Assembly (NCBI RefSeq): GCF_000027125.1
Contig: NC_017626.1
Reading direction: 5' to 3' (one strand)
Source: Escherichia coli 042
GTDB lineage: Bacteria > Pseudomonadota > Gammaproteobacteria > Enterobacterales > Enterobacteriaceae
DNA length: 64,000 nt
Below, in pieces: positions 1 through 3,000 of this stretch. The first letter of the stretch is position 1, and each line of letters starts with the position of its first letter. A program made the position numbers.

Positions 1-3000
1 ACAACGAATAGGTTTTGTACTTACTATGGAATGGATTGCCGATCCGTCTATCTGGGCCGGGTTAATCACGCTGATTGTGATCGAACTGGTCCTCGGCATT
101 GATAACCTGGTCTTTATTGCCATCCTCGCCGAAAAACTACCGCCGAAGCAGCGCGACCGCGCACGGGTTACCGGGCTGCTGCTGGCGATGTTAATGCGCC
201 TGTTACTGCTGGCGTCAATCTCCTGGCTGGTCACCCTGACTCAACCGCTGTTCAGCTTCCGCTCGTTTACCTTTAGCGCCCGCGACTTAATCATGCTGTT
301 TGGTGGTTTCTTCCTGTTGTTCAAAGCCACGATGGAGCTTAACGAACGGCTGGAAGGGAAAGACAGCAATAACCCCACGCAACGCAAAGGTGCGAAGTTC
401 TGGGGGGTGGTGACACAAATTGTGGTACTGGACGCCATCTTCTCACTCGACTCAGTGATTACCGCCGTCGGGATGGTCGACCATTTACTGGTCATGATGG
501 CCGCCGTGGTTATCGCTATCAGCCTGATGTTGATGGCCAGCAAGCCGTTAACCCAGTTCGTTAACAGTCACCCGACCATCGTTATTCTCTGCTTAAGCTT
601 CCTGTTGATGATTGGCTTTAGCCTGGTGGCGGAAGGTTTCGGCTTCGTCATTCCGAAAGGCTACCTGTACGCTGCCATTGGTTTCTCGGTGATGATCGAG
701 GCGCTCAATCAGTTGGCTATCTTTAACCGGCGACGTTTTCTTTCCGCTAACCAGACGCTGCGCCAGCGGACTACCGAAGCGGTAATGCGCCTGCTTAGCG
801 GGCAAAAAGAAGATGCGGAACTGGACGCCGAAACCGCGTCCATGCTGGTGGATCATGGTAACCAGCAGATCTTTAATCCGCAGGAACGGCGGATGATTGA
901 GCGGGTACTTAATCTTAACCAGCGTACTGTCAGCAGCATTATGACGTCGCGCCACGATATTGAGCATATCGATCTCAACGCGCCGGAAGAAGAAATCCGC
1001 CAGTTGCTGGAGCGAAATCAGCATACGCGGCTGGTGGTTACTGATGGCGATGACGCAGAAGATTTGCTCGGTGTTGTTCACGTTATCGACCTGCTACAAC
1101 AGTCTCTGCGCGGCGAACCGCTCAACCTGCGGGTGTTGATTCGCCAGCCGCTGGTGTTCCCGGAAACCTTGCCGTTGTTACCTGCCCTGGAGCAGTTCCG
1201 TAATGCTCGCACACACTTTGCTTTTGTGGTGGATGAGTTTGGTTCAGTGGAAGGGATTGTGACATTAAGTGACGTCACTGAAACCATTGCCGGTAACTTA
1301 CCGAACGAAGTGGAAGAGATCGACGCCCGCCATGATATTCAGAAGAATGCGGACGGTTCCTGGACGGCGAATGGTCATATGCCACTGGAAGATCTGGTGC
1401 AATATGTGCCGCTACCGCTGGATGAGAAACGCGAATATCACACCATTGCCGGGCTGCTGATGGAATATTTGCAGCGTATTCCAAAACCTGGCGAAGAAGT
1501 TCAGGTGGGGGATTATTTGCTTAAAACGTTGCAGGTGGAAAGCCATCGCGTGCAGAAGGTGCAGATTATACCGCTGCGTAAGGATGGCGAGATGGAGTAC
1601 GAGGTGTGATGGTATCGGCCATTTTACCCAATGCTGCGTAACGCCTTATAACTTCAGCAATGAAGCGATGTCTGTGGTACATGGACATCACAGCGGGGGT
1701 GTGGGTCCGGCTGTAAATCGCCGAATCGTTTCCTGTAGGCCGGGGCAGCCCACATGGATGTGGGCTGAGGGCGCGTTTTACAGGGATGTTACCTCGCGCC
1801 CGTACCCGATAGCCGAAAGGAATAAGATGAGGGAACCGCGCCAGCGGCGATTTACCGCCGGGAGCCCGGGTTGCCAGGGTGGTGGCGATTGAGCCACCCT
1901 GGCACGTTCACCGGCTTGAGCGTTCCATAGTAGCGAGGAACATCAAGTGAACGGAACAGCCTTCGATCTTACATATTCAGAATATAATGGTGCCGCCGCT
2001 CGCGATGCTGATGGGATCTATCGCGTCATGTATGTCGCAAAATTTGAAGAAGCGGTTTACGTATTGCATTGTTTTCAAAAGAAAACACAGACTACCAGTC
2101 AATCGGATATTGATTTAGCCAAACGACGCTATAAAGAACTTGTTCAGGAGCGGAAAAATGAAAATTGAAACCTTTGATAGTGTGTGGGATGCGGTGAGTG
2201 ACACCCCTGAACAAGCGGAAAATATGCGGATCCGTGCCGAACTTGTTACGATCATTAATAACTGGATTGAACAACAAGGGTTTAGCCAGGCTCAGGCAGC
2301 GTCTGCTTTAGGGGTCACTCAACCTCGCATATCTGAACTTGCCAGAGGTAAGATCCAGATCTTTAGTATCGATAAATTGATCACCATGATGGCTCATGCA
2401 GGATTGCATATTCAACGTATTGAAGTTCAATATCCACATGCTGCTTAGTACTATAAATACAGATGGCGACAAATTGACGCCGCCATCTGCATAACTTGTC
2501 TTACATCTTCTCCAGCAACTTCTTCACATCTTTGCCATTGCGGGAATCTTTATTCCGCTCGGCCCAGTCATTCAGGCGACGTTTCGCTTCGTCCTGTAAG
2601 TGTTTACGCAGTAACTGATCCACTTGCAGACTGTAATTGAGTTGCTGCCAGTTGCCATAAACCCGCAGCGGTACTGGCGTTTCTTTGAGGAAATCAATCA
2701 GTTTGCTTTCCCCGTTCCAGCCACCCACGACCCGAATATCAAACTGGGTGTCGCAGGTTTGATCTGCCAGATTCAACATACCTTCCCCTGTAAGCGCCAG
2801 CACAGGCGATTGACCTTGCATGTCGTTTAACGTCACGACGCCATCCTTCAACATCAAATCGGTGGTAAAGCGGTCAAGACGCGTCACGTTATCAAAGTTT
2901 TCAGCGGCCTTCACATCACCACCATTACGCTCTACCGCTTGCTGAATCATCTGCTGGAAGTTCATCCCTTCCATGCGCGTGTCGGTCATTTCGACATGTG

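What the first reader, a model, noticed from the sequence alone, without database searches (positions are those of the whole stretch)
1610..2500. About 0.9 kb intergenic stretch between yegH and asmA carrying an overlapping RelE/HigB-like toxin fragment and XRE-HTH antitoxin
The yegH-asmA gap is 891 bp here; as far as I recall these genes are nearly adjacent in K-12 (stated from memory, not checked). The gap contains two small overlapping ORFs in toxin-then-antitoxin order: a 73-codon GTG-initiated ORF with a RelE/HigB-type C-terminal motif (YRVMYV...VLHCFQKKTQ...DIDLAKRRYKEL) and a 96-aa XRE HTH protein (ATG 2158, RBS AGGAG). The toxin ORF appears to lack the N-terminal ~25-30 residues of full-length family members, since in-frame stops occur at 1890 and 1917. 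This may therefore be a decaying module with a retained antitoxin/regulator.
Basis: partly seen in the sequence, partly recalled or inferred. Interest (0 to 1): 0.65.

Follow-up and report, generated by a model that had tools for sequence, protein, structure and literature searches.

The report
Broken toxin gene, intact antitoxin
Between yegH and asmA this E. coli carries the back half of a dead HigB-like toxin gene joined to ordinary spacer DNA, followed by an intact antitoxin gene; this is common gene decay that RefSeq already annotates.

Summary
The yegH-asmA gap is 891 bp. It contains a 73-codon GTG ORF (1947-2168; Pfam Gp49 E=2.8e-17) that overlaps a 96-aa HTH_37 gene (2158-2448; E=5e-22) by 11 bp.

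The gap is a mosaic. Bases 1610-1999 are the left part of the common spacer allele that has no toxin-antitoxin (TA) genes, and they include a TRIP1-family structured repeat. Bases 1999-2500 are the right part of the alternative allele, which in O157:H7 carries an intact 112-aa toxin plus antitoxin.

The joint falls at toxin codon 57/58. The ORF's first 18 codons are unrelated spacer DNA. K-12 has a 273-bp gap with no TA.

The same joint occurs in 116 of 5,426 complete E. coli genomes, and sampled records mark the toxin as a pseudogene. Other strains killed the toxin by frameshift, deletion or IS1, and all sampled toxin-dead alleles keep the antitoxin intact.

Verdict: an ordinary decayed HigBA-type module, already known. 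The more interesting by-product is the TRIP1 copy. It is a sixth locus absent from the 2024 TRIP1 survey, is conserved across Enterobacteriaceae with strong covariation, and is hit in one hairpin loop by an IS110-family element.

The parts
26..1609 (+). yegH (TerC-family membrane protein), left flank
   Evidence: ORF list. RefSeq annotation of near-identical loci.
1610..1999 (.). Left segment of the gap. It derives from the TA-less yegH-asmA spacer allele.
   Evidence: 99.7% identical over 388 bp to strain AVS0575, whose spacer has no TA. Absent from the O157:H7 TA allele.
1630..1807 (.). 178-bp stretch that K-12-type spacers lack. It is bounded by the 5-bp direct repeat TACCC (1625-1629 and 1803-1807).
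   Evidence: Alignment A2 and blastn against MG1655. The K-12 type keeps only the 3' part of the repeat.
1690..1905 (+). TRIP1-family structured repeat, about 215 nt. It has a long closing stem, hairpin 1 with loop AUGGAU (about 1746-1767), hairpin 2 with loop AGGGAU (about 1771-1800) and a 3' GC-rich hairpin (1874-1902).
   Evidence: - 85.7% identical over 189 bp to K-12 TRIP1a in the aqpZ-lysO spacer (PMC10888264).
- MFE -112 kcal/mol, z = -5.0.
- Covariation in 40 enterobacterial copies: 98.7% of cells paired and 20 of 45 pairs with double changes.
- Sub-threshold Rfam TwoAYGGAY match at 1711-1854: 31.5 bits against a gathering score of 43.
1947..2168 (+). Chimeric 73-codon GTG ORF: 18 codons of spacer DNA fused in frame to toxin codons 58-112.
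   Evidence: In K-12 the same GTG opens only a 20-codon ORF (read from alignment A2).
1999..2168 (+). 3' remnant of the Gp49/HigB-like toxin gene (pseudogene). The joint with the spacer allele is at base 1999, with 1 nt of microhomology.
   Evidence: - Alignments A1 and A2.
- Pfam Gp49 positions 46-90 of 90 and PHROG 2523 positions 58-107 of 108.
- PGAP pseudogene in L001, L009, L010 and L011.
2158..2448 (+). Intact HigA-like antitoxin / XRE regulator (HTH_37), 96 aa, with its own AGGAG ribosome-binding site
   Evidence: - Pfam HTH_37 at 5e-22.
- PDB 2a6c at 3.4e-14.
- Protein identical to the O157:H7 antitoxin WP_000687872.1.
2460..2489 (.). Inverted repeat CAGATGGCG...CGCCATCTG between the antitoxin stop and the asmA stop. 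It belongs to the TA allele.
   Evidence: Read. Present in the O157 allele and absent from TA-less alleles. Not scored as an intrinsic terminator.
2501..4354 (-). asmA, right flank. Its stop codon is TAA in TA alleles and TAG in TA-less alleles.

Best explanation
The 891-bp spacer is a mosaic of the two alternative yegH-asmA spacer alleles that circulate in E. coli.

One allele has no TA genes. It is 273 bp in K-12 and about 450 bp when its TRIP1 repeat is complete. The other allele replaces the whole spacer with a toxin-first type II TA operon: a Gp49/HigB-like RelE-fold toxin of 112 aa and an HTH_37/HigA-like antitoxin of 96 aa.

In this genome, the left 390 bp of the TA-less allele is joined at base 1999 to the TA allele at toxin codon 57/58, with one shared C. 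I infer an illegitimate recombination or deletion event. That event removed the operon promoter and palindrome, the toxin's ribosome-binding site and start codon, and strands b1-b3 and helices a1-a2 of the toxin fold. The toxin is therefore dead.

The 73-codon GTG ORF is an accidental in-frame fusion. The antitoxin gene and its ribosome-binding site are intact. It has lost its own promoter, so any expression must come from read-through out of yegH or from a cryptic promoter (inferred, not shown). It is most likely an orphan antitoxin on its way to decay.
For: - Pfam and PHROG matches of the ORF cover only the C-terminal half of the family.
- The intact 112-aa toxin sits at the same locus in O157:H7.
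- Base-by-base alignment shows homology to the TA allele only from 1999 onward, and to the TA-less allele only up to 1999.
- 19 nearly invariant family residues lie in the missing half.
- The AF2 model of the intact toxin (pLDDT 91) matches HigB1, HigB2, S. pneumoniae HigB and RelE. It shows that b1, a1, a2, b2 and b3 are lost.
- PGAP calls the same remnant a pseudogene in the sampled records.
- The same joint is present in 116 of 5,426 genomes.
- The palindrome upstream of the intact toxin is absent from the whole window.
- No sigma-70-like promoter or intrinsic terminator is predicted on the + strand between yegH and the antitoxin.
- All 6 polymorphisms in the toxin remnant among 7 alleles are nonsynonymous.
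- Independent toxin lesions occur at this locus in other strains: a 1-nt frameshift, a 23-bp deletion, an IS1 insertion and a nonsense codon.
Against: - No expression or toxicity data are available.
- The one-step recombination origin is inferred only from the joint.
- The antitoxin shows 9 synonymous and 5 nonsynonymous differences and is intact in all 8 toxin-dead alleles examined. It may therefore not be decaying.
- A perfect TATAAT at 1983-1988 could belong to a cryptic promoter that the consensus scan does not score.
Confidence: 0.88

Rival explanations
1. The orphan antitoxin is kept by selection rather than decaying. It could act as immunity against incoming plasmid- or phage-borne Gp49-type toxins (anti-addiction), or as a co-opted XRE regulator transcribed with yegH.
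For: - The antitoxin ORF is intact in 8 of 8 toxin-dead alleles, which carry five independent lesion types.
- It shows 9 synonymous against 5 nonsynonymous differences.
- Truncated antitoxin variants are rare, on 1-2 contigs each. One truncated toxin variant is on 326 contigs.
- Homologous toxins sit on 424 plasmids, 196 of them conjugative.
- The joint is found in distant lineages such as ABU 83972 and SMS-3-5.
Against: - Its native promoter and operator region is deleted, and no replacement promoter is predicted.
- One toxin-truncated allele (KN12-1) has 4 private amino-acid changes.
- The sample is small and the age of the lesions is unknown.
- 83% of E. coli genomes do without the gene.
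- Plasmid toxins in E. coli relatives are only about 72-74% identical, so cross-neutralisation is uncertain.
Confidence: 0.25
2. The 73-codon chimeric ORF encodes a functional product: a mini-toxin, a decoy that binds the antitoxin, or a new small protein.
For: - The ORF is open and in frame.
- GAGGA lies 7 nt upstream of the GTG.
- It keeps b4, b5 and the C-terminal helix, including the invariant H80, C81, F82, K84 and K85.
Against: - It lacks half of the RelE fold and 19 nearly invariant residues.
- No family member among 7,804 relatives is listed with this architecture.
- All 6 polymorphisms are nonsynonymous.
- PGAP treats it as a pseudogene.
- The GTG and its ribosome-binding-like site pre-exist in TA-less alleles, where they open only 20 codons.
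Confidence: 0.04
3. The mosaic is not a recombinant of two alleles. It is a deletion derivative of an older composite spacer (yegH - TRIP1 - REP - TA - asmA), from which the O157-type and K-12-type alleles also derive by different deletions.
For: - The spacer is deletion-prone. There is a 178-bp deletion between TACCC repeats in K-12, a 123-bp internal TRIP1 deletion at efeU-putP, and an allele that retains only the last 104 bp of the TA spacer (H120).
Against: - No composite allele with both TRIP1 and an intact toxin appeared in any sampled row.
- In the O157 type, homology with the TA-less type ends exactly at the two stop codons, as expected for whole-spacer replacement.
Confidence: 0.12

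Closest known systems
Gp49 (PF05973) / HTH_37 (PF13744) toxin-first HigBA-type type II TA modules, as catalogued on Tn3-family transposons (PMC7157771)
   Same: - Same two Pfam families.
- Same toxin-then-antitoxin order with overlapping genes.
- That paper also records a transposon (Tn5501.5) whose toxin is truncated while the antitoxin stays intact.
   Different: - This copy is chromosomal and sits between two core genes, not on a transposon.
- The toxin here is cut by replacement of its 5' half and promoter.
Intact yegH-asmA TA allele of E. coli O157:H7 (toxin WP_001227701.1, antitoxin WP_000687872.1)
   Same: - Same locus.
- Antitoxin protein identical.
- Toxin residues 58-112 identical.
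   Different: The O157 allele has the 75-bp upstream region with a 13-bp-arm palindrome, the ribosome-binding site, the ATG and residues 1-57. It has no TRIP1 repeat.
Solved HigB/RelE toxins: M. tuberculosis HigB1 (7awk, 7nbu), V. cholerae HigB2 (5ja8), S. pneumoniae HigB (6af3/6af4), RelE
   Same: The predicted fold of the intact toxin matches them: TM 0.69 to 7awk, probability 1.0. There is weak sequence similarity to 6af3 over the C-terminal strands and helix, E=0.0013 with a profile.
   Different: - Sequence identity is only 12-21%.
- Ribosome-dependent mRNase activity is inferred from the fold, not tested.
- The window copy has only the last two strands and the C-terminal helix.
TRIP1 repeats of E. 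coli (Rudd 1999; Li et al. 2024, PMC10888264)
   Same: - Window 1715-1899 is 85.7% identical to TRIP1a.
- It has the same GC-rich, very stable branched fold.
- Like TRIP1b, some copies carry deletions.
   Different: - The yegH-asmA locus is not among the five loci of that survey (0 mentions).
- It is the most divergent copy.
- The survey covers only E. coli and does not address conservation in other genera, covariation or IS targeting.
Rfam RF01731 TwoAYGGAY motif (Weinberg 2010, PMC2864571)
   Same: - A long closing P1 stem plus two hairpins with (A)YGGAY loops.
- Full-length model alignment in three E. coli paralogues.
   Different: - Scores of 30.6-36.6 bits are below the gathering score of 43.
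- Loop 2 is AGGGAU or AGGAC in E. coli.
- None of 17 Klebsiella, Enterobacter or Leclercia copies reaches the threshold.

Membership tests
Type II TA module, HigBA type (Gp49 toxin / HTH_37 antitoxin) | Toxin with a complete RelE/ParE-superfamily fold | tested here: not met
   The window ORF covers only Pfam Gp49 positions 46-90 of 90 and residues 58-112 of 112. The intact O157 allele does meet this feature: AF2 pLDDT 91 and Foldseek hits to HigB1, HigB2 and RelE.
Type II TA module, HigBA type (Gp49 toxin / HTH_37 antitoxin) | Adjacent HTH antitoxin gene downstream of the toxin, overlapping or closely coupled | tested here: met
   HTH_37 at 5e-22. There is an 11-bp overlap (ATG 2158 against stop 2166-2168) and an AGGAG ribosome-binding site.
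Type II TA module, HigBA type (Gp49 toxin / HTH_37 antitoxin) | Own promoter or operator upstream of the first gene | tested here: not met
   The 75-bp upstream region of the intact allele, with its palindrome and TATAAT, is replaced by spacer DNA. The palindrome is absent from the window, and no + strand promoter is predicted.
Type II TA module, HigBA type (Gp49 toxin / HTH_37 antitoxin) | Toxin inhibits growth and antitoxin neutralises it | not testable with these tools
   No experimental data found for this E. coli module: accession search gave 0 papers and a yegH/asmA/toxin search gave nothing relevant.
NCBIfam TIGR02683 (upstrm_HI1419 RelE/ParE toxin) and TIGR02607 (HigA) | Score at or above the curated cut-off | tested here: not met
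   The intact toxin scores 27 bits against a cut-off of 62.85. The antitoxin scores 16.3 bits against 47.7. The window fragment has no hit.
TRIP1 repeat family (E. coli) | Sequence similarity to TRIP1a-e at BLAST level | tested here: met
   85.7% identity over 189 bp to MG1655 915039-915223, inside TRIP1a (915016-915281). Identity to the efeU-putP and alx-sstT copies is 79-84%.
TRIP1 repeat family (E. coli) | Location at one of the five described loci | tested here: not met
   The copy lies downstream of yegH. The survey lists aqpZ-ybjE, putP-ycdN, yohI-yohG, alx-sstT and copA-ybaP, and never mentions yegH or asmA.
TRIP1 repeat family (E. coli) | Very stable branched ('double-Y') RNA fold | tested here: met
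   MFE -112 kcal/mol, z = -5.0. The fold has a closing stem, two hairpins and a 3' hairpin. Covariation supports the stems.
Rfam RF01731 TwoAYGGAY | Covariance-model score at or above the gathering threshold (43 bits) | tested here: not met
   31.5 bits in the window, 30.6 and 36.6 bits in paralogues, and no hit at gathering level in 17 copies from other genera.
Rfam RF01731 TwoAYGGAY | Two terminal loops with AYGGAY, closed by a long P1 | tested here: inconclusive
   Loop 1 is AUGGAU in all copies, but that sequence was fixed by the search pattern. Loop 2 is AGGGAU in the window and AUGGAU in Leclercia and Silvania copies. A long P1 is present.

The most novel reading that the evidence does not exclude
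The undescribed part of the gap is its left half. It holds a sixth, divergent copy of the TRIP1 element.

TRIP1 would not be an E. coli curiosity but an Enterobacteriaceae-wide, multi-copy, roughly 215-nt structured RNA. It would be a sub-threshold enterobacterial branch of the orphan TwoAYGGAY motif, with stems maintained by compensatory changes. The loop of its second hairpin would be the specific landing site of an IS110-family element, which RefSeq labels 'RNA-guided transposase' and which has IS1111-like ends.

If the element is transcribed from yegH read-through, it could also be what now drives or gates expression of the orphan antitoxin.
Probability: 0.3. Interest if true: 0.5.

Novelty: already known. 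Interest (0 to 1): 0.2.

Why it matters
For the finding as given, it matters little. It is a textbook case of a chromosomal toxin-antitoxin pair losing its toxin, and the annotation pipeline already flags it.

It has modest value as a clean natural series at one locus: intact, frameshifted, IS-disrupted, 5'-replaced and almost fully deleted alleles. That series could be used to measure whether orphan antitoxins are retained by selection.

The TRIP1 observation could matter more. It links a long-known but functionless E. coli repeat to an orphan Rfam motif, shows structure-preserving evolution across genera, and identifies the repeat as a natural target of an IS110-family element.

Tried and rejected
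- **Simple insertion into a K-12-like spacer:** rejected. The left 390 bp is TA-less spacer DNA and the TA allele replaces the whole spacer.
- **Mobile MITE with target-site duplication:** considered for the 178-bp stretch missing in K-12. Rejected because paralogues show the repeat unit spans the boundary, so K-12 has a deletion between TACCC repeats.
- **Retron, group II intron or other Rfam family for 1610-1999:** only the sub-threshold TwoAYGGAY hit was found.
- **NCBIfam:** only sub-cut-off hits.
- **PADLOC:** only weak hits to NsnC and PDC-M64C, not pursued.
- **Sequence search of the PDB with the toxin:** only a weak S. pneumoniae HigB hit. A fold search was needed.
- **Literature searches:** protein accessions and yegH/asmA/toxin gave nothing specific.
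- **First genome-contig scan:** returned nothing because my pattern had one N too many. The corrected scan worked.
- **Promoter scan:** no + strand promoter in either allele, so it cannot say how the antitoxin is transcribed.
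Full report
**Observation.** The window starts with yegH (26..1609, +), followed by asmA (2501..4354, -) and dcd. The gap is 1610-2500, 891 bp.

- The GTG ORF at 1947..2168 (73 codons) and the ATG ORF at 2158..2448 (96 codons) exist as described. They overlap by 11 bp, and AGGAG lies upstream of the ATG.
- The in-frame TGA codons at 1890 and 1917 are present.
- The first ORF matches Pfam Gp49 (PF05973) at E=2.8e-17, but only model positions 46-90 of 90. 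It matches PHROG 2523 at positions 58-107 of 108.
- The second ORF matches HTH_37 (PF13744) at E=5e-22. Its closest solved relative is the HTH protein 2a6c at 3.4e-14.

**What the locus looks like elsewhere.** I searched the gap against 5,426 complete E. coli genomes and found several spacer alleles.

- *Intact allele.* O157:H7 has a 112-aa toxin (WP_001227701.1) and the 96-aa antitoxin. These are preceded by only 75 bp that carry a palindrome with 13-bp arms and a TATAAT.
- *K-12 allele.* MG1655 has a 273-bp spacer with no TA genes.
- *Frequencies.* 910 genomes (17%) carry any DNA of the TA allele, and 793 have at least 80% of the O157-type spacer.
- *This joint.* A 201-bp query centred on the window's joint is covered at 80% or more in 116 genomes (2.1%), including ABU 83972 and SMS-3-5.
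- *Annotation.* In every toxin-truncated record I opened, PGAP annotates the toxin as a pseudogene, 'incomplete; missing N-terminus', next to an intact HTH gene.

**Anatomy of the window allele.** Alignment of the window with O157:H7, SCU-172, AVS0575, A2 and strain 1303 shows a mosaic.

- Bases 1610-1999 are 99.7% identical to the left part of the TA-less allele.
- From 1999 to the asmA stop codon, the sequence is the TA allele.
- The sequences at the joint are:
  - TA-less: ...GCCGCCGC|GAACGCC
  - TA allele: ...CGTAC|TCGCGATG
  - window: ...GCCGCCGC|TCGCGATG

  Only one shared C marks the joint.
- Toxin residues 1-57, the start codon, the ribosome-binding site and the whole upstream region are absent.
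- Residues 58-112 are retained and identical to O157.
- The first 18 codons of the 73-codon ORF (MNGTAFDLTYSEYNGAAA) are spacer DNA. In K-12 the same GTG opens only a 20-codon ORF.

The truncation is therefore 57 residues, not 25-30.

**Is the remnant a toxin?**

- The family is large: 7,804 relatives, and those listed are mostly 108-116 aa and all Gp49.
- 19 nearly invariant positions fall in the missing half.
- An AlphaFold model of the intact protein (pLDDT 91.2) has the elements b1, a1, a2, b2, b3, b4, b5 and a C-terminal helix.
- That model matches M. tuberculosis HigB1 (TM 0.69), V. cholerae HigB2, S. pneumoniae HigB and RelE proteins.
- The window copy keeps only b4, b5 and the C-terminal helix.
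- Among seven alleles, the six polymorphisms in the remnant are all nonsynonymous. This is consistent with relaxed constraint but not significant on its own.

I conclude the toxin is dead. Mechanistically the intact module would be a HigBA-type ribosome-dependent mRNase plus a DNA-binding antitoxin. That rests on fold and family membership, not on any assay.

**The antitoxin.**

- Its protein is identical to that of O157:H7.
- Its native promoter region is gone. The palindrome of the intact allele occurs nowhere in the window.
- The consensus scan finds neither a + strand promoter nor a terminator between yegH and the gene. Read-through from yegH is the simplest source of transcription, but this is an inference.
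- Other strains inactivated the toxin independently:
  - a 1-nt frameshift in SCU-172
  - a 23-bp deletion or frameshift in Ec-050
  - an IS1 insertion in ECONIH4
  - a nonsense codon at position 83, on 326 contigs
- In all eight toxin-dead alleles examined, the antitoxin is an intact 96-aa gene.
- Its differences are 9 synonymous against 5 nonsynonymous, and four of the five are private to one strain.
- Truncated antitoxin proteins exist but are rare.
- Homologous toxins occur on 424 plasmids.

This leaves room for retention of the orphan antitoxin by selection (anti-addiction or regulatory use). The sample is too small to claim it.

**The left half of the gap.**

- *TRIP1 identity.* Window positions about 1690-1905 belong to a repeat with copies in the aqpZ-lysO, efeU-putP and alx-sstT spacers. 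This is the TRIP1 family of Rudd (1999), surveyed by Li et al. 2024, who list five loci and do not mention yegH or asmA. The yegH-asmA copy is thus a sixth, more divergent locus. Its 5' part is covered at 80% or more in 1,501 genomes, and the sampled full-length matches lie downstream of yegH.
- *K-12 deletions.* K-12 lacks the 5' part here through a 178-bp deletion between TACCC repeats. The K-12 efeU-putP copy has a 123-bp internal deletion.
- *Stability.* The element folds very stably: -112 kcal/mol, z = -5.0. The + strand is 14 kcal/mol more stable than the - strand.
- *Other genera.* A pattern scan of one genome per species found it in multiple copies in Escherichia, Enterobacter, Klebsiella, Leclercia, Silvania, Atlantibacter, Pseudescherichia, Raoultella and Pseudocitrobacter.
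- *Covariation.* In 40 non-redundant copies, 98.7% of cells pair, against 88% in shuffles and about 40% when partners are slid. 20 of 45 pairs show double compensatory changes.
- *Rfam.* There are only sub-threshold, full-length matches to TwoAYGGAY: 30.6-36.6 bits against a gathering score of 43. That motif's published description, two AYGGAY loops closed by a very long P1, fits.
- *IS insertion.* In some strains with the truncated-toxin allele, and in some TA-less strains, a 1,384-bp IS110-family element sits exactly in the loop of hairpin 2 (CAGGGAT^GTTACC, with AT duplicated). It has IS1111-like ends: sub-terminal inverted repeats ATGGACGCTCC and a 273-bp 3' non-coding end. This corresponds to window 1786/1787. 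The IS is not in this window.

**Comparison and verdict.** The Gp49/HTH_37 toxin-first pair is a recognised HigBA-type module. Truncated-toxin, intact-antitoxin states have been noted before, for example on transposon Tn5501.5. The window copy fails the membership test for a functional module because it has no complete toxin fold and no own promoter. It is unambiguously a remnant of one.

This is an ordinary, already annotated feature, so novelty is 'already known' and interest is low.

Noticed in passing
window 1690-1905 (+): A TRIP1-family structured repeat sits downstream of yegH. This locus is not among the five TRIP1 loci of the 2024 E. coli survey. Its 5' part is covered at 80% or more in 1,501 of 5,426 complete genomes, and K-12 has it 5'-deleted.
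   Followed up: yes
L022-L109 (genome-contig scan), alignment A6: TRIP1-like elements occur in several copies per genome across Enterobacteriaceae (for example 6 in K. pneumoniae ATCC 13883). Covariation is strong: 20 of 45 pairs show compensatory changes. The architecture resembles the orphan Rfam motif TwoAYGGAY, but scores stay below its threshold.
   Followed up: partly
L012:1904-3287, L011, L013 (position corresponds to window 1786/1787): A 1,384-bp IS110-family element is inserted exactly in the loop of TRIP1 hairpin 2. It has a 341-aa transposase labelled 'RNA-guided' in RefSeq, IS1111-like sub-terminal inverted repeats ATGGACGCTCC and a duplicated AT. It is found in strains with and without the TA remnant, and is absent from this window.
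   Followed up: partly
L006, L020, L021; proteins P0045, P0061, P0015: The toxin at this locus has been inactivated independently several times: a 1-nt frameshift, a 23-bp deletion, an IS1 insertion, a nonsense codon at position 83 (on 326 contigs) and an internal deletion. The antitoxin is intact in each genome examined.
   Followed up: partly
hit H120 (NZ_CP020025.1, strain WB61): One spacer allele retains only the last 104 bp of the TA-type spacer, with nothing annotated there. It may be a late stage of the same decay.
   Followed up: no
window 15958-16106, 16293-16435, 16621-16763 (+): There are three tandem SIB RNA genes (Rfam RF00113, 140-150 bits), which are antitoxins of type I toxin-antitoxin pairs. 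From memory, K-12 has two at this position. I did not check this.
   Followed up: no
window 1983-1988: A perfect TATAAT hexamer lies 170 bp upstream of the antitoxin ATG, inside the spacer-derived part of the chimeric ORF. It has no good -35 partner. It could be a cryptic promoter for the orphan antitoxin.
   Followed up: no
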